NCBI GenBank assembly: GCA_000002435.2
Contig: AACB03000018.1
DNA: 11,372 bases
Reading direction: 5' to 3' (one strand)
Origin: Giardia intestinalis
Taxonomy: Eukaryota
The translations under genes were made by a program, and so were the position numbers. Below are positions 1 through 11,372 of the stretch, in pieces (positions within the stretch are counted from its first letter, which is position 1; the number at the start of each line of letters is the position of its first letter). The notes beneath the pieces were generated by a model that searched no databases, was not told the DNA's origin, and saw only the letters and a list, made by a program, of their open reading frames with translations.

Positions 1-210
1 TTCACAATGGTTCTACTTGCGAAATTAATCAAGTGCTTGTTGATAAGGGTGTCAATTGCTCCTTGATGCAAAATTCGTGAGTCATCAAAAGAATCAGCAA
101 TCTAGCTATTATGACATTGGAGCCCAAAATGTTTCTAATCTGAATCATTATCTAGTTAAGGAACATATAATATGCCACCTAAGTATAATAATGATAAGTC
201 TCAGATAGAT
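1..210. other. Unique AT-rich flank (~33% GC) abutting the satellite array, with no repeat homology and no convincing ORF or RNA gene
   Basis: Hand count gives 70 G+C in 210 bp. There is no internal repetition and no similarity to the 51-bp unit. The boundary is sharp at ~210/211 (…cagatagatac | atgccaggacaggttggccc…). Confidence 0.7.
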
Positions 211-715
211 ACATGCCAGGACAGGTTGGCCCATCGACGCACCTCGTTGACCGGGGAAACAGCATGCCAGGACAGGTTGGCCCATCGACGCACCTCGTTG
301 ACCGGGGAAACAGCATGCCAGGACAGGTTGGCCCATCGACGCACCTCGTTGACCGGGGAAACAGCATGCCAGGACAGGTTGGCCCATCGACGCACCTCGT
401 TGACCGGGGAAACAGCATGCCAGGACAGGTTGGCCCATCGACGCACCTCGTTGACCGGGGAAACAGCATGCCAGGACAGGTTGGCCCATCGACACCTCGT
501 TGACCGGGGAAACAGCATGCCAGGACAGGTTGGCCCATCGACGCACCTCGTTGACCGGGGAAACAGCATGCCAGGACAGGTTGGCCCATCGACGCACCTC
601 GTTGACCGGGGAAACAGCATGCCAGGACAGGTTGGCCCATCGACGCACCTCGTTGACCGGGGAAACAGCATGCCAGGACAGGTTGGCCCATCGACGCACC
701 TCGTTGACCGGGGAA
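211..715. repeat. Homogeneous edge domain of 10 consecutive class-A monomers with the GC core. There are no B heads and no AT core variant, and the first five units are identical
   Basis: Units start at 259, 310, 361, 412 and so on, all acagcatgccaggacaggttggcccatcgacgcacc…. The single deviation is a 2-bp deletion at ~494 (cgacacctcg). The first B head appears at 716. Confidence 0.85.
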
Positions 716-2138
716 ATGGGACTCCGGGCCAGCTAGGCCCTCGACATACCTCGTTGACCGGGGAAATGGGACTCCGGGCCAGCTAGGCCCATCGACATAC
801 CTCGTTGACCGGGGAAACAGCATGCCAGGACAGGTTGGCCCATCGACGCACCTCGTTGACCGGGGAAACAGCATGCCAGGACAGGTTGGCCCATCGACGC
901 ACCTCGTTGACCGGGGAAACAGCATGCCAGGACAGGTTGGCCATCGACGCACCTCGTTGACCGGGGAAATGGGACTCCGGGCCAGCTAGGCCCATCGACA
1001 TACCTCGTTGACCGGGGAAATGGGACTCCGGGCCAGCTAGGCCCATCGACGCACCTCGTTGACCGGGGAAACAGCATGCCAGGACAGGTTGGCCCATCGA
1101 CACCTCGTTGACCGGGGAAACAGCATGCCAGGACAGGTTGGCCCATCGACGCACCTCGTTGACCGGGGAAACAGCATGCCAGGACAGGTGGCCCATCGAC
1201 ATACCTCGTTGACCGGGGAAACAGCATGCCAGGACAGGTTGGCCCATCGACGCACCCTCGTTGACCGGGGAAACAGCATGCCAGACAGGTTGGCCCATCG
1301 ACGCACCTCGTTGACCGGGAAACAGCATGCCAGGACAGGTTGGCCCATCGACATACCTCGTTGACCGGGAAACAGCATGCCAGGACAGGTTGGCCCATCG
1401 ACGCACCTCGTTGACCGGGGAAATGGGACTCCGGGCCAGCTAGGCCCATCGACATACCCTCGTTGACCGGGGAAACAGCATGCCAGGACAGGTTGGCCCA
1501 TCGACGCACCTCGTTGACCGGGGAAACAGCATGCCAGGACAGGTTGGCCCATCGACGCACCTCGTTGACCGGGGAAACAGCATGCCAGGACAGGTTGGCC
1601 CATCGACGCACCTCGTTGACCGGGGAAATGGGACTCCGGGCCAGCTAGGCCCATCGACGCACCTCGTTGACCGGGGAAATGGGACTCCGGGCCAGCTAGG
1701 CCCATCGACGCACCTCGTTGACCGGGGAAATGGGACTCCGGGCCAGCTAGGCCCATCGACAACCTCGTTGACCGGGGAACAGCATGCCAGGACAGGTTGG
1801 CCCATCGACGCACCTCGTGACCGGGGGAAACCAGCATGCCAGGACAGGTTGGCCCATCGACGCACCTCGTTGACCGGGGAAATGGGACTCCGGGCCAGCT
1901 AGGCCCATCGACATACCTCGTTGACCGGGGAAAACAGCATGCCAGGACAGGTTGGCCCATCGACGCACCTCGTTGACCGGGGAAATGGGACTCCGGGCCA
2001 GCTAGGCCCATCGACATACCTCGTTGACCGGGGAAACAGCATGCCAGGACAGGTTGGCCCATCGACGCACCTCGTTGACCGGGGGAAACAGCATGCCAGG
2101 ACAGGTTGGCCCATCGACGCACCTCGTTGACCGGGGAA

Positions 2139-2546
2139 ACAGCATGCCAGGACAGGTTGGCCCATCGACGCACCTCGTTGACCGGGGAAATGGGACTCCG
2201 GGCCAGCTAGGCCCATCGACATACCTCGTTGACCGGGGAAATGGGACTCCGGGCCAGCTAGGCCCATCGACGCACCTCGTTGACCGGGGAAATGGGACTC
2301 CGGGCCAGCTAGGCCCATCGACATACCTCGTTGACCGGGAAACAGCATGCCAGGACAGGTTGGCCCATCGACGCACCTCGTTGACCGGGGAAATGGGACT
2401 CCGGGCCAGCTAGGCCCATCGACATACCTCGTTGACCGGGGAAATGGGACTCCGGGCCAGCTAGGCCCATCGACGCACCTCGTTGACCGGGGAAATGGGA
2501 CTCCGGGCCAGCTAGGCCCATCGACATACCTCGTTGACCGGGGGAA
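2139..2546. repeat. Higher-order unit (A-b-B-b)x2, 4 monomers or 204 bp per copy. The same quartet recurs at ~2945-3150 and ~3770-3960
   Basis: Monomer typing gives 2139 A, 2190 b, 2241 B, 2292 b, 2342 A, 2393 b, 2444 B, 2495 b. Confidence 0.75.
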
Positions 2547-4643
2547 ACAGCATGCCAGGACAGGTTGGCCCATCGACGCACCTCGTTGACCGGGGAAACA
2601 GCATGCCAGGACAGGTTGGCCCATCGACGCACCTCGTTGACCGGGGAAATGGGACTCCGGGCCAGCTAGGCCCATCGACATACCTCGTTGACCGGGGAAA
2701 CAGCATGCCAGGACAGGTTGGCCCATCGACGCACCTCGTTGACCGGGGAAACAGCATGCCAGGACAGGTTGGCCCATCGACGCACCTCGTTGACCGGGGA
2801 AACAGCATGCCAGGACAGGTTGGCCCATCGACGCACCTCGTTGACCGGGGAAACAGCATGCCAGGACAGGTTGGCCCATCGACGCACCTCGTTGACCGGG
2901 GAAATGGACTCCGGGCCAGCTAGGCCCATCGACGCACCTCGTTGACCGGGGAAACAGCATGCCAGGACAGGTTGGCCCATCGACGCACCTCGTTGACCGG
3001 GGAAATGGGACTCCGGGCCAGCTAGGCCCATCGACATACCTCGTTGACCGGGGAAATGGGACTCCGGGCCAGCTAGGCCCATCGACGCACCTCGTTGACC
3101 GGGGGAAATGGGACTCCGGGCCAGCTAGGCCCATCGACATACCTCGTTGACCGGGGAAACAGCATGCCAGGACAGGTTGGCCCATCGACGCACCTCGTTG
3201 ACCGGGGAAACAGCATGCCAGGACAGGTTGGCCCATCGACGCACCTCGTTGACCGGGGGAAATGGGACTCCGGGCCAGCTAGGCCCATCGACATACCTCG
3301 TTGACCGGGGAAACAGCATGCCAGGACAGGTTGGCCCATCGACGCACCTCGTTGACCGGGGAAACAGCATGCCAGGACAGGTTGGCCCATCGACGCACCT
3401 CGTTGACCGGGGAAACAGCATGCCAGGACAGGTTGGCCCATCGACGCACCTCGTTGACCGGGGAAATGGGACTCCGGGCCAGCTAGGCCCATCGACATAC
3501 CTCGTTGACCGGGGAAACAGCATGCCAGGACAGGTTGGCCCATCGACGCACCTCGTTGACCGGGGAAACAGCATGCCAGGACAGGTTGGCCCATCGACGC
3601 ACCTCGTTGACCGGGGAAACAGCATGCCAGGACAGGTTGGCCCATCGACGCACCTCGTTGACCGGGGAAACAGCATGCCAGGACAGGTTGGCCCATCGAC
3701 GCACCTCGTTGACCGGGGGAAATGGGACTCCGGGCCAGCTAGGCCCATCGACGCACCTCGTTGACCGGGGAAACAGCATGCCAGGACAGGTTGGCCCATC
3801 GACGCACCTCGTTGACCGGGGAAATGGGACTCCGGGCCAGCTAGGCCCATCGACATACCTCGTTGACCGGGGAAATGGGACTCCGGGCCAGCTAGGCCCA
3901 TCGACGCACCTCGTTGACCGGGGAAATGGGACTCCGGGCCAGCTAGGCCCATCGACATACCTCGTTGACCGGGGAAACAGCATGCCAGGACAGGTTGGCC
4001 CATCGACGCACCTCGTTGACCGGGGAAACAGCATGCCAGGACAGGTTGGCCCATCGACGCACCTCGTTGACCGGGGAAATGGGACTCCGGGCCAGCTAGG
4101 CCCATCGACATACCTCGTTGACCGGGGAAACAGCATGCCAGGACAGGTTGGCCCATCGACGCACCTCGTTGACCGGGGAAACAGCATGCCAGGACAGGTT
4201 GGCCCATCGACGCCACCTCGTTGACCCGGGGAAACAGCATGCCAGGACAGGTTGGCCCATCGACATACCTCGTTGACCGGGGAAATGGGACTCCGGGCCA
4301 GCTAGGCCCATCGACATACCTCGTTGACCGGGGAAACAGCATGCCAGGACAGGTTGGCCCATCGACATACCTCGTTGACCGGGGAAACAGCATGCCAGGA
4401 CAGGTTGGCCCATCGACATACCTCGTTGACCGGGGGAAACAGCATGCCAGGACAGGTTGGCCCATCGACGCACCTCGTTGACCGGGGAAACAGCATGCCA
4501 GGACAGGTTGGCCCATCGACATACCTCGTTGACCGGGGGAAACAGCATGCCAGGACAGGTTGGCCCATCGACGCACCTCGTTGACCGGGGAAATGGGACT
4601 CCGGGCCAGCTAGGCCCATCGACGCACCTCGTTGACCGGGGAA

Positions 4644-5100
4644 ACAGCATGCCAGGACAGGTTGGCCCATCGACGCACCTCGTTGACCGGGGAAACAGCA
4701 TGCCAGGACAGGTTGGCCCATCGACATACCTCGTTGACCGGGGAAACAGCATGCCAGGACAGGTTGGCCCATCGACGCACCTCGTTGACCGGGGAAACAG
4801 CATGCCAGGACAGGTTGGCCCATCGACATACCTCGTTGACCGGGGAAACAGCATGCCAGGACAGGTTGGCCCATCGACGCACCTCGTTGACCGGGGAAAC
4901 AGCATGCCAGGACAGGTTGGCCCATCGACGCACCTCGTTGACCGGGGAAACAGCATGCCAGGACAGGTTGGCCCATCGACGCACCTCGTGACCGGGAAAC
5001 AGCATGCCAGGACAGGTTGGCCCATCGACGCACCTCGTTGACCGGGGAAATGGGACTCCGGGCCAGCTAGGCCCATCGACGCACCTCGTTGACCGGGGAA
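4644..5100. repeat. Copy 1 of the 9-monomer block A-a-A-a-A-A-A-A-B. Its seventh monomer (4953-5001) carries two 1-bp deletions
   Basis: The type order was read directly. ORF 4632..4991(+) has the same translation prefix as ORFs 5242..5682 and 6619..7059. Confidence 0.8.
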
Positions 5101-5253
5101 ACAGCATGCCAGGACAGGTTGGCCCATCGACGCACCTCGTTGACCGGGGAAACAGCATGCCAGGACAGGTTGGCCCATCGACGCACCTCGTTGACCGGGG
5201 AAATGGGACTCCGGGCCAGCTAGGCCCATCGACGCACCTCGTTGACCGGGGAA

Positions 5254-5712
5254 ACAGCATGCCAGGACAGGTTGGCCCATCGACGCACCTCGTTGACCGG
5301 GGAAACAGCATGCCAGGACAGGTTGGCCCATCGACATACCTCGTTGACCGGGGAAACAGCATGCCAGGACAGGTTGGCCCATCGACGCACCTCGTTGACC
5401 GGGGAAACAGCATGCCAGGACAGGTTGGCCCATCGACATACCTCGTTGACCGGGGAAACAGCATGCCAGGACAGGTTGGCCCATCGACGCACCTCGTTGA
5501 CCGGGGAAACAGCATGCCAGGACAGGTTGGCCCATCGACGCACCTCGTTGACCGGGGAAACAGCATGCCAGGACAGGTTGGCCCATCGACGCACCTCGTT
5601 GACCGGGGAAACAGCATGCCAGGACAGGTTGGCCCATCGACGCACCTCGTTGACCGGGGAAATGGGACTCCGGGCCAGCTAGGCCCATCGACGCACCTCG
5701 TTGACCGGGGAA
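5254..5712. repeat. Copy 2 of the 9-monomer block A-a-A-a-A-A-A-A-B (459 bp, indel-free)
   Basis: Monomer typing. ORF 5242..5682(+) is identical in translation to ORF 6619..7059(+), and ORF 5220..5645(-) is identical to ORF 6597..7022(-). Confidence 0.85.
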
Positions 5713-6630
5713 ACAGCATGCCAGGACAGGTTGGCCCATCGACGCACCTCGTTGACCGGGGAAACAGCATGCCAGGACAGGTTGGCCCATCGACGCACCT
5801 CGTTGACCGGGGAAATGGGACTCCGGGCCAGCTAGGCCCATCGACGCACCTCGTTGACCGGGGAAACAGCATGCCAGGACAGGTTGGCCCATCGACGCAC
5901 CTCGTTGACCGGGGAAATGGGACTCCGGGCCAGCTAGGCCCATCGACATACCTCGTTGACCGGGGAAATGGGACTCCGGGCCAGCTAGGCCCATCGACAT
6001 ACCTCGTTGACCGGGGAAATGGGACTCCGGGCCAGCTAGGCCCATCGACGCACCTCGTTGACCGGGGAAACAGCATGCCAGGACAGGTTGGCCCATCGAC
6101 GCACCTCGTTGACCGGGGAAATGGGACTCCGGGCCAGCTAGGCCCATCGACATACCTCGTTGACCGGGGAAATGGGACTCCGGGCCAGCTAGGCCCATCG
6201 ACGCACCTCGTTGACCGGGGAAACAGCATGCCAGGACAGGTTGGCCCATCGACGCACCTCGTTGACCGGGGAAACAGCATGCCAGGACAGGTTGGCCCAT
6301 CGACGCACCTCGTTGACCGGGGAAATGGGACTCCGGGCCAGCTAGGCCCATCGACGCACCTCGTTGACCGGGGAAATGGGACTCCGGGCCAGCTAGGCCC
6401 ATCGACATACCTCGTTGACCGGGGAAATGGGACTCCGGGCCAGCTAGGCCCATCGACGCACCTCGTTGACCGGGGAAACAGCATGCCAGGACAGGTTGGC
6501 CCATCGACGCACCTCGTTGACCGGGGAAATGGGACTCCGGGCCAGCTAGGCCCATCGACATACCTCGTTGACCGGGGAAATGGGACTCCGGGCCAGCTAG
6601 GCCCATCGACGCACCTCGTTGACCGGGGAA

Positions 6631-7089
6631 ACAGCATGCCAGGACAGGTTGGCCCATCGACGCACCTCGTTGACCGGGGAAACAGCATGCCAGGACAGGT
6701 TGGCCCATCGACATACCTCGTTGACCGGGGAAACAGCATGCCAGGACAGGTTGGCCCATCGACGCACCTCGTTGACCGGGGAAACAGCATGCCAGGACAG
6801 GTTGGCCCATCGACATACCTCGTTGACCGGGGAAACAGCATGCCAGGACAGGTTGGCCCATCGACGCACCTCGTTGACCGGGGAAACAGCATGCCAGGAC
6901 AGGTTGGCCCATCGACGCACCTCGTTGACCGGGGAAACAGCATGCCAGGACAGGTTGGCCCATCGACGCACCTCGTTGACCGGGGAAACAGCATGCCAGG
7001 ACAGGTTGGCCCATCGACGCACCTCGTTGACCGGGGAAATGGGACTCCGGGCCAGCTAGGCCCATCGACGCACCTCGTTGACCGGGGAA
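6631..7089. repeat. Copy 3 of the 9-monomer block, exactly 1377 bp (27 monomers) downstream of copy 2. The flanking A-x-B triplets are also conserved, giving a 15-monomer superblock
   Basis: The identical ORF translations on both strands at a +1377 offset are described under copy 2. Flanking monomers are u97-99 A-A-B versus u124-126 A-b-B upstream and u109-111 A-A-B versus u136-138 A-b-B downstream. Confidence 0.85.
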
Positions 7090-7702
7090 ACAGCATGCCA
7101 GGACAGGTTGGCCCATCGACGCACCTCGTTGACCGGGGAAATGGGACTCCGGGCCAGCTAGGCCCATCGACATACCTCGTTGACCGGGGGAAATGGGACT
7201 CCGGGCCAGCTAGGCCCATCGACGCACCTCGTTGACCGGGGAAACAGCATGCCAGGACAGGTTGGCCCATCGACGCACCTCGTTGACCGGGGAAATGGGA
7301 CTCCGGGCCAGCTAGGCCCATCGACATACCTCGTTGACCGGGGAAATGGGACTCCGGGCCAGCTAGGCCCATCGACGCACCTCGTTGACCGGGGAAACAG
7401 CATGCCAGGACAGGTTGGCCCATCGACGCACCTCGTTGACCGGGGAAATGGGACTCCGGGCCAGCTAGGCCCATCGACATACCTCGTTGACCGGGGAAAT
7501 GGGACTCCGGGCCAGCTAGGCCCATCGACGCACCTCGTTGACCGGGGAAACAGCATGCCAGGACAGGTTGGCCCATCGACGCACCTCGTTGACCGGGGAA
7601 ATGGGACTCCGGGCCAGCTAGGCCCATCGACATACCTCGTTGACCGGGGAAATGGGACTCCGGGCCAGCTAGGCCCATCGACGCACCTCGTTGACCGGGG
7701 AA
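7090..7702. repeat. (A-b-B)x4 three-monomer higher-order repeat, 153 bp per copy
   Basis: Units start at 7090 A, 7141 b (+1 g in its G-run), 7193 B, 7244 A, 7295 b, 7346 B, 7397 A, 7448 b, 7499 B, 7550 A, 7601 b, 7652 B. ORF 7180..8280(+) shows the corresponding GTPGQLGPSTH / SMPGQVGPSTH / GTPGQLGPSTY cycle. Confidence 0.85.
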
Positions 7703-8299
7703 ATGGGACTCCGGGCCAGCTAGGCCCATCGACGCACCTCGTTGACCGGGGAAACAGCATGCCAGGACAGGTTGGCCCATCGACGCACCTCGTTGACCGG
7801 GGAAACAGCATGCCAGGACAGGTTGGCCCATCGACGCACCTCGTTGACCGGGGAAATGGGACTCCGGGCCAGCTAGGCCCATCGACGCACCTCGTTGACC
7901 GGGGAAATGGGACTCCGGGCCAGCTAGGCCCATCGACATACCTCGTTGACCGGGGAAATGGGACTCCGGGCCAGCTAGGCCCATCGACGCACCTCGTTGA
8001 CCGGGGAAACAGCATGCCAGGACAGGTTGGCCCATCGACGCACCTCGTTGACCGGGGAAATGGGACTCCGGGCCAGCTAGGCCCATCGACATACCTCGTT
8101 GACCGGGGAAATGGGACTCCGGGCCAGCTAGGCCCATCGACGCACCTCGTTGACCGGGGAAACAGCATGCCAGGACAGGTTGGCCCATCGACGCACCTCG
8201 TTGACCGGGGAAACAGCATGCCAGGACAGGTGGCCCATCGACGCACCTCGTTGACCGGGAATGGGATCCGGGCCAGCTAGGCCCATCGACATCCTCGTT

Positions 8300-11200
8300 G
8301 ACCGGGGAAATGGGACTCCGGGCCAGCTAGGCCCATCGACGCACCTCGTTGACCGGGGAAACAGCATGCCAGGAAGGTTGGCCCATCGACGCACCTCGTT
8401 GACCGGGGAAACAGCATGCCAGGACAGGTTGGCCCATCGACGCACCTCGTTGACCGGGGAAATGGGACTCCGGGCCAGCTAGGCCCATCGACGCACCTCG
8501 TTGACCGGGGAAACAGCATGCCAGGACAGGTTGGCCCATCGACGCACCTCGTGACCGGGGAAACAGCATGCCAGGACAGGTTGGCCCATCGACGCACCTC
8601 GTTGACCGGGGGAAACAGCATGCCAGGACAGGTTGGCCCATCGACGCACCTCGTTGACCGGGGAAATGGGACTCCGGGCCAGCTAGGCCCATCGACGCAC
8701 CTCGTTGACCGGGGAACAGCATGCCAGGACAGGTTGGCCCATCGACGCACCTCGTTGACCGGGGAAACAGCATGCCAGGACAGGTTGGCCCATCGACGCA
8801 CCTCGTTGACCGGGGAAATGGGACTCCGGGCCAGCTAGGCCCATCGACGCACCTCGTTGACCGGGGAAACAGCATGCCAGGACAGGTTGGCCCATCGACG
8901 CACCTCGTTGACCGGGGAAACAGCATGCCAGGACAGGTTGGCCCATCGACGCACCTCGTTGACCGGGGAAATGGGACTCCGGGCCAGCTAGGCCCATCGA
9001 CGCACCTCGTTGACCGGGGAAATGGGACTCCGGACAGGTTGGCCCATCGACGCACCTCGTTGACCGGGGAAACAGCATGCCAGGACAGGTTGGCCCATCG
9101 ACGCACCTCGTTGACCGGGGAAATGGGACTCCGGGCCAGCTAGGCCCATCGACACCTCGTTGACCGGGGAAACAGCATGCCAGGACAGGTTGGCCCATCG
9201 ACGCACCTCGTTGACCGGGGAAACAGCATGCCAGGACAGGTTGGCCCATCGACGCACCTCGTTGACCGGGGAAACAGCATGCCAGGACAGGTTGGCCCAT
9301 CGACGCACCTCGTTGACCGGGGAAACAGCATGCCAGGACAGGTTGGCCCATCGACGCACCTCGTTGACCGGGGAAACAGCATGCCAGGACAGGTTGGCCC
9401 ATCGACGCACCTCGTTGACCGGGGAAACAGCATGCCAGGACAGGTTGGCCCATCGACGCACCTCGTTGACCGGGGAAATGGGACTCCGGGCCAGCTAGGC
9501 CCATCGACGCACCTCGTTGACCGGGGAAACAGCATGCCAGGACAGGTTGGCCCATCGACGCACCTCGTTGACCGGGGAAACAGCATGCCAGGACAGGTTG
9601 GCCCATCGACGCACCTCGTTGACCGGGGAAACAGCATGCCAGGACAGGTTGGCCCATCGACGCACCTCGTTGACCGGGGAAACAGCATGCCAGGACAGGT
9701 TGGCCCATCGACGCACCTCGTTGACCGGGGAAATGGGACTCCGGGCCAGCTAGGCCCATCGACGCACCTCGTTGACCGGGGAAACAGCATGCCAGGACAG
9801 GTTGGCCCATCGACGCACCTCGTTGACCGGGGAAACAGCATGCCAGGACAGGTTGGCCCATCGACGCACCTCGTTGACCGGGGAAATGGGACTCCGGCAG
9901 CTAGGCCCATCGACGCACCTCGTTGACCGGGGAAATGGGACTCCGGGCCAGCTAGGCCCATCGACGCACCTCGTTGACCGGGGAAATGGGACTCCGGGCA
10001 GCTAGGCCCATCGACGCACCTCGTTGACCGGGGAAATGCATGCCGGCAGCTAGGCCCATCGACGCACCTCGTTGACCGGGGAAATGGACTCCGGGCCAGC
10101 TAGGCCCATCGACGCACCTCGTTGACCGGGGAAACAGCATGCCAGGACAGGTTGGCCCATCGACGCACCTCGTTGACCGGGGAAATGGGACTCCGGGCCA
10201 GCTAGGCCCATCGACGCACCTCGTTGACCGGGGAAATGGGACTCCGGGCCAGCTAGGCCCATCGACACCTCGTTGACCGGGGAAATGGGACCCGGGCCAG
10301 CTAGGCCCATCGACGCACCTCGTTGACCGGGGAAACAGCATGCCAGGACAGGTTGGCCCATCGACGCACCTCGTTGACCGGGGAAACAGCATGCCAGGAG
10401 GTTGGCCCATCGACGCACCTCGTTGACCGGGGAAACAGCATGCCAGGACAGGTTGGCCCATCGACGCACCTCGTTGACCGGGGAAATGGGACTCCGGGCC
10501 AGCTAGGCCCATCGACGCACCTCGTTGACCGGGGAAACAGCATGCCAGGACAGGTTGGCCCATCGACGCACCTCGTTGACCGGGGAAACAGCATGCCAGG
10601 ACAGGTTGGCCCATCGACGCACCTCGTTGACCGGGGAAACAGCATGCCAGGACAGGTTGGCCCATCGACGCACCTCGTTGACCGGGGAAATGGACTCCGG
10701 ACCAGCTAGGCCCATCGACGCACCTCGTTGACCGGGGAAATGGGACCCGGGCCAGCTAGGCCCATCGACGCACCTCGTTGACCGGGGAAATGGGACTCCG
10801 GGCCAGCTAGGCCCATCGACGCACCTCGTTGACCGGGGAAACAGCATGCCAGGACAGGTTGGCCCATCGACGCACCTCGTTGACCGGGGAAACAGCATGC
10901 CAGGACAGGTTGGCCCATCGACGCACCTCGTTGACCGGGGAAACAGCATGCCAGGACAGGTTGGCCCATCGACGCACCTCGTTGACCGGGGAAACAGCAG
11001 CCAGGACAGGTTGGCCCATCGACGCACCTCGTTGACCGGGGAAACAGCATGCCAGGACAGGTTGGCCCATCGACGCACCTCGTTGACCGGGGAAAAGCAT
11101 CCGGACAGCTAGGCCCATCGACGCACCTCGTTGACCGGGGAAACAGCATGCCAGGACAGGTTGGCCCATCGACGCACCTCGTTGACCGGGGAAATGGGAC

Positions 11201-11372
11201 TCCGGACAGCTAGGCCCATCGACACCTCGTTGACCGGGGAAATGGGACTCCGGGCCAGCTAGGCCCATCGACGCACCTCGTTGACCGGGAAACAGCATGC
11301 CAGGACAGGTTGGCCCATCGACGCACCTCGTTGACCGGGGAAATGGGACTCCGGCCAGCTAGGCCCATCGAC
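8300..11372. repeat. 3' domain lacking the AT core variant entirely. It is indel-rich and contains chimeric A/B monomers
   Basis: No cgacatacc occurs after ~8294, and every core reads cgacgcacc or the 2-bp deleted form. Chimeric heads are at 9022-9071 (atgggactccgg+acaggtt), ~10037-10055 (atgcatgccggcagcta), ~11096-11112 (aagcatccggacagcta) and ~11201-11215 (atgggactccggacagcta). Confidence 0.8.

What the first reader, a model, noticed from the sequence alone, without database searches (positions are those of the whole stretch)
4644..7089. Exact 27-monomer (1377 bp) periodicity: nested higher-order repeat or segmental duplication
The 9-monomer block A-a-A-a-A-A-A-A-B occurs at 4644-5100, 5254-5712 and 6631-7089. 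Copies 2 and 3 and their A-x-B flanks are co-linear at an exact 27-monomer offset, giving identical ORF translations over more than 440 bp on both strands. The two copies differ only by A/b swaps at two flanking positions. This indicates very recent unequal-crossover amplification of a ~1.4-kb higher-order unit inside the array.
Basis: seen in the sequence. Interest (0 to 1): 0.55.

Follow-up and report, generated by a model that had tools for sequence, protein, structure and literature searches.

The report
Giardia kinase gene's giant coding repeat
The repeated block is real, but it is one of several local duplications inside an 11-kb array of 51-bp units that encodes a 17-amino-acid repeat at the tail of a Giardia Nek-type kinase gene, so the duplication is ordinary and the size of the array is the notable part.

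Summary
The block ADADAAAAB occurs three times, and 5185-5764 is base-for-base identical to 6562-7141, an offset of 1377 bp or 27 monomers. This 580-bp match is the longest exact self-match in the window.

There is no 27-monomer periodicity. Array-wide similarity at lag 27 is at background. Only two adjacent units exist, of 27 and 30 monomers, after a 12-monomer partial unit. Other duplications sit at lags 16, 12 and 30, and the only recurrent periodicity is a weak 3-monomer one.

The array (212-11372, about 219 copies, running off the window end) is not an anonymous satellite. Its +0 frame (LVDRGNSMPGQVGPSTH) and the 211-bp left flank are colinear with the C-terminus of a Giardia duodenalis Nek-like kinase that lacks two catalytic aspartates. 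The assemblage B proteins carry 2.5 or 6.5 repeats and the assemblage E (P15) protein about 6.

Between assemblages, monomer differences are almost all synonymous (7:0 and 7:1; 30 of 38 at third codon positions). The frame is therefore coding and under purifying selection.

The window's frameshifts are mostly 1-bp deletions and homopolymer changes (83 indel bases against 10 substitutions), which looks like long-read consensus error.

Verdict: a coding minisatellite with ordinary unequal-exchange or slippage footprints. The scale (at least 3,700 residues) is unusual and I found no description of it.

The parts
1..211 (+). Unique, AT-rich (33% GC) 3' coding region of a Giardia Nek-like kinase gene just upstream of the repeat. 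It has three 1-bp gaps, after positions 76, 157 and 211, relative to both orthologues.
   Evidence: The three-frame translation is colinear with the C-terminal regions of P0006 and P0080. DNA alignment A1 gives 85% identity to P15 and 75% to assemblage B, and each gap is a single base missing in the window only.
212..11372 (+). 51-bp tandem array of about 219 monomers that runs off the right end of the window. It encodes the 17-aa repeat LVDRGN[SG][MT]PGQ[VL]GPST[HY] in the frame whose codons start at 243 (CTC).
   Evidence: TRF, monomer typing, translation, HMMER hit to P0006 and synonymous-dominated divergence from the P15 and assemblage B monomers.
4628..5237 (+). Unit 1, 12 monomers: ADADAAAaB AAB. 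The block ADADAAAAB (copy 1) is at 4628-5084 and carries two 1-bp deletions.
   Evidence: A 454-bp exact run at lag 610, starting at 4536, is.
5238..6614 (+). Unit 2, 27 monomers (1377 bp): ADADAAAAB AAB ACCB ACB AAB CB ACB. Block copy 2 is at 5238-5696.
6615..8145 (+). Unit 3, 30 monomers: ADADAAAAB ACB ACB ACB ACB B AAB CB ACB. Block copy 3 is at 6615-7073.
   Evidence: The 3' part BAABCBACBA matches unit 2 at lag 30 (6156 against 7687; a 547-bp exact run at lag 1531).
5185..5764 (+). First arm of the 580-bp exact duplicate (monomers B ADADAAAAB A).
6562..7141 (+). Second arm of the 580-bp exact duplicate, offset +1377.
2530..4216 (+). A separate, longer monomer-level duplication: 17 monomers AACAAAABACBCAACAA at 2530-3398 and again at 3348-4216 (lag 16). 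At base level it is obscured by 1-bp indels.
5034..7175 (.). Zone free of indels: 42 consecutive perfect 51-bp monomers.
   Evidence: Elsewhere 53 of 219 monomers carry indels.

Best explanation
The window is the 3' end of a Giardia duodenalis gene for a Nek-type kinase, followed by a very large expansion of the gene's C-terminal coding repeat. By its flank, the lineage is closer to assemblage E than to B, so probably assemblage A-like. The orthologues lack two catalytic aspartates.

The repeat unit is 51 bp, or 17 aa, and at least 219 copies are present. Two monomer classes, NSM and NG[T/G], are shared by the three lineages compared, so they predate the split between them.

I infer that the array grows, shrinks and is homogenised by out-of-register recombination or replication slippage between monomers: unequal sister-chromatid exchange, gene conversion, or both. 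These events copy blocks of monomers. The 12-, 27- and 30-monomer units that all begin ADADAAAAB are the footprint of two or three such events around a locally arisen D (His-to-Tyr) variant. The lag-16, lag-12 and lag-30 matches are further examples.

Shown here:
- the duplication
- the coding frame
- orthology of the flank
- purifying selection on the peptide

Inferred:
- the recombination mechanism
- that the window's frameshifts are consensus errors rather than real mutations
- that the whole array is translated
For: - **Array and types.** A single 51-bp array with only four exact monomer types.
- **Duplication.** A 580-bp exact match at lag 1377. ADADAAAAB occurs 3 times against 0.019 expected.
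- **Homologue found.** An exhaustive HMMER search with the +0 frame finds P0006, 75% identical over 52 aa at its extreme C-terminus, E = 3.4e-14. P0006 is a Giardia duodenalis assemblage B Ser/Thr kinase, KWX12190.1, with a Pkinase domain at residues 15-274.
- **Independent support from the flank.** The 211-bp flank was not part of the query, yet it is colinear with the residues upstream of the repeat in P0006 and in the P15 'Kinase, NEK' P0080. Identity is 85% to P15 and 75% to B.
- **Selection on the peptide.** Window type A against the P15 S-type gives 7 synonymous and 0 nonsynonymous differences, all at third codon positions. Window type B against the P15 G-type gives 7 and 1. Pooled over five comparisons, 30 of 38 differences are at third positions.
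- **Copy number varies.** Annotated orthologues carry 2.5, 6.5 and about 6 repeats.
- **Error profile.** 61 deleted and 22 inserted bases against 10 substitutions, many of them in homopolymer runs. All three flank frameshifts are 1-bp deletions. The Giardia WB PacBio paper reports homopolymer frameshift errors, gaps 'at long repeats' and small repeat-rich contigs (PMC7000408).
- **Kinase family.** The best solved relatives of the orthologue's kinase domain are NEK2 and NEK1 (E = 9e-23). The HRD Asp is replaced by Asn and the DFG Asp by Gly. This matches the 71% of Giardia Neks reported as lacking catalytic residues (PMC3218828).
Against: - The window holds no kinase domain, so linkage of this array to an intact gene is inferred from 211 bp of flank.
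- As read, frame +0 is interrupted many times. 53 of 219 monomers and the flank carry indels. If those are real, this is a pseudogene or satellite.
- The within-window synonymous/nonsynonymous pattern between types A and C is not significant on its own (p about 0.3 by simulation).
- Short-read or 454 assemblies may have collapsed the orthologous arrays, so the contrast of 2.5-6.5 copies with at least 219 may be overstated.
- No assemblage A orthologue protein was found in the protein database.
- The recombination mechanism is not observable from one sequence.
Confidence: 0.75

Rival explanations
1. Assembly artefact. The order and number of blocks, or the length of the array, was produced by mis-joining noisy long reads, or reads from different chromosome copies of tetraploid Giardia, within a repetitive array. 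On this view the 27-monomer duplicate does not exist as such in the genome.
For: Indel errors are dense and unevenly spread. Both ends are noisy and the centre (5034-7175) is clean, as expected for a small low-coverage contig. The array runs off the window end. The WB PacBio assembly left gaps at long repeats and small repeat-rich contigs (PMC7000408).
Against: The three units are adjacent and differ internally (12, 27 and 30 monomers). That pattern is not what a simple overlap mis-join yields. The duplicated part lies in the best-supported, error-free zone. The irregular monomer order argues against a rolling-circle or consensus artefact.
Confidence: 0.12
2. Non-coding satellite or pseudogene relic. 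A 3' fragment of the kinase gene was expanded into a satellite-like array that is no longer translated, and the frameshifts in the flank and array are real.
For: There are three frameshifts in 211 bp of flank and indels in 24% of monomers. The window has no upstream gene body. Manning et al. report frequent Nek pseudogenes in Giardia (PMC3218828). No assemblage A orthologue protein is annotated in the database.
Against: Indel bases outnumber substitutions about 8 to 1 and many fall in homopolymer runs. That is a sequencing-error signature, not a mutational spectrum. The four well-supported monomer types are all exactly 51 bp and open in frame +0. A 714-codon stretch is uninterrupted where the consensus is clean. 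The monomers differ from the P15 monomers only synonymously, so selection on the peptide acted up to, or close to, the present array.
Confidence: 0.12
3. True nested higher-order repeat with a 27-monomer (1377-bp) period, as in centromeric satellites.
For: A 580-bp exact match at lag 1377. Two adjacent long units begin with the same 9-monomer block.
Against: Only two copies lie at that spacing. The next unit is 30 monomers, not 27, and what follows (8146 onward) does not restart with ADADAAAAB. Array-wide lag-27 autocorrelation is at background. Longer monomer-level matches exist at lags 16 and 12.
Confidence: 0.03

Closest known systems
Coding minisatellites (VNTRs) in protist and microbial repeat proteins, such as parasite repeat antigens and mucin-type genes, which evolve by unequal recombination or slippage with concerted evolution (my own knowledge, not checked in a paper here)
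   Same: The unit length is a multiple of 3. The ORF is maintained. Monomers are homogenised within a lineage while synonymous sites differ between lineages. Copy number differs between strains. Internal block duplications are present.
   Different: At least 219 copies (at least 3,723 aa) attached to a kinase that lacks catalytic residues. This is much longer than the 2.5-6.5 copies annotated in other Giardia assemblages. The peptide matches no Pfam family.
Giardia Nek kinase expansion (Manning et al. 2011, PMC3218828)
   Same: The orthologues are annotated 'Kinase, NEK' or Ser/Thr kinase. Their best solved relatives are NEK2 and NEK1. They lack the HRD and DFG aspartates, like most Giardia Neks. 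The gene is the last of five tandem kinase genes.
   Different: Giardia Neks are described as enriched in ankyrin repeats and coiled coils. This one has a 17-aa tandem repeat tail instead, and I found no mention of it in searchable papers.
Higher-order repeat (HOR) satellite arrays such as primate alpha satellite
   Same: Monomer subtypes are arranged in recurring multi-monomer blocks. The most homogeneous sequence lies in the middle of the sampled array.
   Different: No fixed multimer is reiterated. There is only a weak 3-monomer periodicity plus isolated block duplications. The sequence is coding rather than a non-coding satellite.
Beta-solenoid repeat proteins, such as ice-nucleation and antifreeze proteins and left-handed beta-helices with 16-18 residues per coil
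   Same: AlphaFold2 models 13 repeats as a regular beta-solenoid, one coil per 17 residues, with pLDDT 84.6 and pTM 0.77. The hydrophobic positions (L, V, and V/L/M) and the Gly/Asn/Pro turn positions are conserved across assemblages.
   Different: No significant structural match in the PDB (best E = 0.5). AlphaFold2 is known to over-predict confident beta-solenoids for perfect repeats (PMC11795689). A non-coding-frame control from the same DNA also gave a beta-rich repeat model, though weaker (pLDDT 63, pTM 0.56).

Membership tests
Higher-order repeat (HOR) array | A multi-monomer unit reiterated in tandem many times, giving a clear similarity peak at that lag across the array | tested here: not met
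   Lag-27 monomer autocorrelation is 0.39, at background. Only two units exist, of 27 and 30 monomers, and the following sequence does not restart the unit.
Higher-order repeat (HOR) array | Monomer subtypes in a fixed order within the unit | tested here: inconclusive
   There is a weak 3-monomer pattern (A-x-B). The commonest B-to-B spacing is 3 (17 times), then 1 (9 times), then 9 and 4 (6 times each). Lags that are multiples of 3 are enriched, with 6 of 2000 shuffles reaching the observed value. The P15 array also reads G-S-S-G-S-S. The pattern is irregular.
Coding minisatellite / VNTR | Unit length a multiple of 3, and one frame open in all variants | tested here: met
   The unit is 51 bp. 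Frame +0 is open in types A-D, though two minus-strand frames are open as well.
Coding minisatellite / VNTR | The repeat is in frame with a flanking gene | tested here: inconclusive
   It is in frame in the annotated orthologues P0006, P0077 and P0080. In the window it is in frame only after restoring three 1-bp deletions in the flank and the indels in the array.
Coding minisatellite / VNTR | Purifying selection on the encoded peptide | tested here: met
   Window against P15 monomers gives 7 synonymous to 0 nonsynonymous and 7 to 1. Pooled, 30 of 38 differences are at third codon positions.
Coding minisatellite / VNTR | Copy-number variation between strains | tested here: met
   2.5 copies (BAH15c1), 6.5 (P0077, same 90% cluster as the assemblage B protein), about 6 (P15) and at least 219 (window). 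Short-read assemblies may collapse arrays, which limits this comparison.
Giardia Nek kinase gene | A protein kinase domain most similar to NEK kinases | not testable with these tools
   The window has only 211 bp upstream of the array. The orthologues do meet this feature: Pkinase E = 9e-30 and NEK2 E = 9e-23.
Giardia Nek kinase gene | Orthologous flank sequence | tested here: met
   Window 18-211 aligns colinearly with the P15 locus at 85% identity and the assemblage B locus at 75%.
Beta-solenoid repeat protein | One coil per repeat with a stacked hydrophobic core, supported by structure or a reliable model | tested here: inconclusive
   AlphaFold2 gives pLDDT 84.6, against 63.0 for the wrong-frame control. 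There is no PDB match with E below 0.5. AlphaFold2 has a known bias towards this fold for perfect repeats (PMC11795689).

The most novel reading that the evidence does not exclude
In this Giardia lineage a Nek-type kinase that lacks catalytic residues carries an intact, translated C-terminal tail of at least 219 near-perfect 17-residue repeats. The tail folds as a continuous beta-solenoid rod about 100 nm long (219 coils at roughly 0.48 nm each). That would make it a giant structural or spacer protein of the Giardia cytoskeleton. The array may also be one of the 'long repeats' that still break Giardia chromosome assemblies.
Probability: 0.15. Interest if true: 0.7.

Novelty: new member of a known kind. 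Interest (0 to 1): 0.33.

Why it matters
The feature that was flagged, block duplication inside a tandem array, is routine repeat dynamics.

The context matters more. The array identifies a Giardia kinase gene whose repeat tail is annotated at 2.5-6.5 copies in published assemblies but reaches at least 219 copies (more than 11 kb) in a long-read sequence. Either the short-read gene models are badly truncated, or the locus varies in length enormously between lineages.

This bears on three things:
- Giardia genome finishing, because arrays of this kind break assemblies.
- Annotation. The P15 model has a frameshifted, probably artefactual C-terminus.
- The unexplained biology of the many Giardia Neks that lack catalytic residues, which are thought to act as scaffolds.

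Translation is easy to test. Trypsin would release the 17-residue peptide GNSMPGQVGPSTHLVDR, present roughly 100 times per protein molecule (type A monomers).

Tried and rejected
- **Prokaryotic, phage or plasmid origin.** There were no exact matches to the monomer or its conserved core in genome contigs, viral contigs or metagenome contigs. A back-translated search of metagenome contigs found nothing. BLAST against phages and plasmids found nothing.
- **Word-indexed protein searches.** The +0 frame and a chimera of the other four usable frames returned nothing, perhaps because each search reached 8000 candidates, which may be a cap. Only the exhaustive HMMER search found the Giardia protein. 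Its other 75 hits that I inspected are unrelated repeat proteins.
- **Structured RNA.** Rfam gave no match on 1-1500.
- **Hairpin or cruciform satellite.** DNA folding of dimers of each type on both strands gave z-scores from -1.1 to +2.1, not better than shuffles.
- **Bacterial promoter or terminator at the array start.** Nothing convincing.
- **Olive Oe51 51-bp satellite.** Rejected because it is 33.5% GC against 63% here.
- **Within-window synonymous/nonsynonymous argument for coding.** Types A and C differ by 4 synonymous and 4 conservative codons, but a simulation gives p about 0.3, so I dropped it in favour of the cross-assemblage test.
- **Literature string searches.** Searches for the monomer DNA and for the peptide found nothing. 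The Giardia long-read papers I checked do not mention the array.
- **Exact-ORF look-ups to locate the source contig.** Not on record.
- **Structural matches.** A Foldseek search of the model against the PDB gave no significant match.
Full report
**1. What is in the window**

Tandem Repeats Finder reports one array, 212-11343, with period 51, 218.9 copies and 89% matches. The repeat continues to the last base, so the array runs off the right end. The first 211 bp are unique, 33% GC, and hold only two CpGs. The array is about 63% GC.

I cut the array at the conserved CTCGTTGACC. This gives four exact 51-bp monomer types built from two variable sites:
- Site 1 is AACAGCATGCCAGGACAGGTTGG or AATGGGACTCCGGGCCAGCTAGG, which differ at 9 positions.
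- Site 2 is GCAC or ATAC.
- The types are A (96 copies), B (37), C (26) and D (9).

The other monomers are these four with small defects. Aligning every imperfect monomer to its nearest type gives 61 deleted bases, 22 inserted bases and 10 substitutions. The commonest events are gain or loss of a G in the GGGG run, and at least 8 of the 10 substitutions fall at sites where types A and B differ. This looks like long-read consensus error rather than mutation.

The defects are unevenly spread. Both ends are noisy, while 5034-7175 holds 42 perfect monomers in a row.

**2. Checking the observation**

At lag 1377, 5185-5764 is identical to 6562-7141. At 580 bp this is the longest exact self-match at any lag between 40 and 6000.

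The rest follow a 1-bp insertion in copy 3 that shifts the register.

The block occurs three times against 0.019 expected under a first-order Markov model of monomer order. Exact D monomers occur only between 4320 and 6818.

**3. Is it a 27-monomer periodicity?**

No. Across the array, monomer-type autocorrelation at lag 27 is 0.39, inside the background range.

The local layout is three adjacent units:
- 12 monomers, 4628-5237
- 27 monomers, 5238-6614
- 30 monomers, 6615-8145

All three begin ADADAAAAB. The last two also share their 3' end, BAABCBACB(A), which gives a 547-bp exact run at lag 1531. After 8145 the unit does not restart.

Once indels are ignored, longer monomer-level duplications appear elsewhere: 17 monomers at lag 16 (2530 against 3348) and 15 monomers at lag 12. 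The lag-27 pair stands out at base level largely because it lies in the clean zone.

The only recurrent periodic signal is weak and at 3 monomers. The commonest B-to-B spacing is 3, and only 6 of 2000 shuffles reach the observed enrichment of lags that are multiples of 3. The short P15 array is also ordered G-S-S-G-S-S.

Because I found almost no private substitutions in the array, the exact identity of the two copies says nothing about their age.

**4. What the array is**

DNA pattern scans of bacterial and archaeal genomes, viral contigs and metagenome contigs found nothing. BLAST against phages and plasmids also found nothing. Two word-indexed protein searches found nothing.

An exhaustive HMMER search with the +0 translation (LVDRGNSMPGQVGPSTH...) found P0006. 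It is 75% identical over 52 residues at the extreme C-terminus of an 894-aa protein, with E = 3.4e-14. P0006 is a Giardia duodenalis assemblage B serine/threonine kinase, KWX12190.1, with a Pkinase domain at residues 15-274.

The residues just upstream of its repeats are ...CEINQTFVDKGINCSLIQGS...QKNQQSNYY...NLNHYLVKRTYN...YNTDKSQ.... These are colinear with the window's 211-bp flank read successively in three frames. The flank was not part of the query, so this is independent support.

The assemblage E (P15) orthologue P0080, annotated 'Kinase, NEK', is closer still.

The DNA alignment of the three loci shows the following:
- 85% identity between the window flank and P15
- 75% identity between the window flank and assemblage B
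- 74% identity between P15 and B
- exactly three positions, after 76, 157 and 211, where the window alone lacks one base

Each missing base is a -1 frameshift, the same kind of defect that dominates in the array.

In both reference loci the gene is the last of five tandem kinase genes.

**5. Coding frame and selection**

Within the window, types A and C differ by four synonymous and four conservative codons in frame +0. A simulation shows this is not significant (p about 0.3).

The comparison between assemblages is decisive:
- Window type A against the P15 S-type monomer differs at 7 positions, all third codon positions and all synonymous.
- Window type B against the P15 G-type gives 7 synonymous and 1 nonsynonymous difference.
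- Pooled over five orthologous-type comparisons, 30 of 38 differences are at third positions.

The peptide is therefore under purifying selection. Synonymous states are homogenised within each lineage, which is concerted evolution.

The NSM and NG[T/G] monomer classes occur in the window, P15 and assemblage B. The two-type structure therefore predates their divergence.

**6. Copy number**

The annotated orthologues carry 2.5 repeats (BAH15c1), 6.5 (P0077, in the same 90% cluster as the assemblage B protein) and about 6 (P15). The window holds at least 219, or at least 3,723 residues.

The short counts come from assemblies that I take to be 454 or short-read based (from my own knowledge, not checked here), and these may collapse arrays. 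The P15 contig ends about 140 bp after the array. Its model is frameshifted by a 1-bp deletion in the fourth repeat (L001 monomer 8671-8720, 50 bp), which gives an artefactual C-terminus.

No assemblage A orthologue protein was retrieved. The WB PacBio paper reports homopolymer frameshift errors, four gaps 'at long repeats' and 33 small repeat-rich contigs (PMC7000408). This window would fit that description, but its source is not established.

**7. The protein**

The best solved relatives of the orthologue's kinase domain are NEK2 and NEK1 (E = 9e-23). In the alignment the HRD Asp is replaced by Asn and the DFG Asp by Gly. The protein is therefore probably catalytically inactive, like 71% of Giardia Neks (PMC3218828).

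The repeat matches no Pfam family above threshold.

AlphaFold2 without an alignment models 13 repeats as a regular beta-solenoid with one coil per repeat, pLDDT 84.6 and pTM 0.77. [quoted passage not shown] As a control I modelled a non-coding minus-strand frame of the same DNA. It also gave a beta-rich repeat model, but with pLDDT 63.0 and pTM 0.56, and three of its five models fell below 40.

A Foldseek search of the PDB gave no significant match. The best E was 0.5, and the list was dominated by generic beta-helix proteins. The solenoid reading is possible but unproven.

**8. Mechanism**

I infer that the array evolves by out-of-register recombination or slippage between monomers, together with gene conversion. 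The following fit that process:
- the block duplications at lags 12, 16, 27 and 30
- the confinement of the D (His-to-Tyr) variant to one neighbourhood
- the within-lineage homogeneity of synonymous sites

One sequence cannot separate unequal sister-chromatid exchange from slippage or conversion. Nor can it exclude that part of the block order is an assembly artefact.

**9. Verdict**

The 'periodicity' or higher-order-repeat reading is not supported. The segmental-duplication reading is supported and is ordinary for tandem arrays.

The useful result is the identification of the array as a coding 17-aa repeat at the tail of a Giardia Nek-like kinase gene, greatly expanded relative to published gene models and, as far as I could search, undescribed.

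Noticed in passing
window 243-11372, with the clean zone at 5034-7175: Indel defects are not uniform. There are 42 consecutive perfect monomers in the centre, against 24% defective monomers overall and the densest defects at both ends. This suggests a small contig whose consensus support peaks in the middle, or polishing that worked only where the monomer order is distinctive.
   Followed up: partly
window 2530-3398 and 3348-4216: A 17-monomer duplication at lag 16 (AACAAAABACBCAACAA). At monomer level it is longer than the flagged lag-27 match, but 1-bp indels hide it at base level.
   Followed up: partly
whole array, and L001 8518-8810: A weak 3-monomer (153 bp, 51 aa) periodicity of the form A-x-B. 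The P15 array is ordered G-S-S-G-S-S, whereas the 6.5-repeat assemblage B-cluster protein P0077 alternates S-G. The ancestral higher-order unit may differ between lineages.
   Followed up: partly
L001 8671-8720 (P15 locus), protein P0080 C-terminus: The annotated P15 protein ends in ...GNGHRARWVRPRTSLIGETACRARW.... This is the +1 frame of the repeat, entered through a 1-bp deletion (GGGACA read as GGACA). The published C-terminus is probably an assembly or annotation artefact. In the correct frame the protein would end ...PGQVGCF*.
   Followed up: partly
L001 1-8850 and L002 1-8685: In both reference assemblages the gene is the last of five consecutive same-strand genes with kinase domains, which is a local tandem kinase cluster.
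   Followed up: no
P0080 residues about 143-165 (orthologue kinase domain): The catalytic HRD Asp is Asn (HRNIRPE) and the DFG Asp is Gly (LGGMR) in the alignment to human NEK2. The orthologue is probably catalytically inactive.
   Followed up: yes
protein database search: No assemblage A (WB or DH) orthologue of this kinase was retrieved, although assemblage B and E orthologues were. The gene may be broken or unannotated in assemblage A assemblies, possibly because of this array.
   Followed up: no
window 5238-5900, frame +0: AlphaFold2 gives a confident one-coil-per-repeat beta-solenoid (pLDDT 84.6). A wrong-frame control from the same DNA gives a weaker beta-rich model (pLDDT 63). The hydrophobic positions (L, V, V/L/M) and the turn positions (DRGN, PGQ, PS) are conserved across assemblages.
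   Followed up: partly
every monomer, for example window 243-293: Cutting after the single Arg in each repeat (the Arg is followed by Gly, as trypsin would cut) would release exactly one 17-residue peptide per repeat, GNSMPGQVGPSTHLVDR. This gives a simple mass-spectrometry test of whether the array is translated. The NGT variant creates an N-x-T sequon that is absent from the NSM variant.
   Followed up: no
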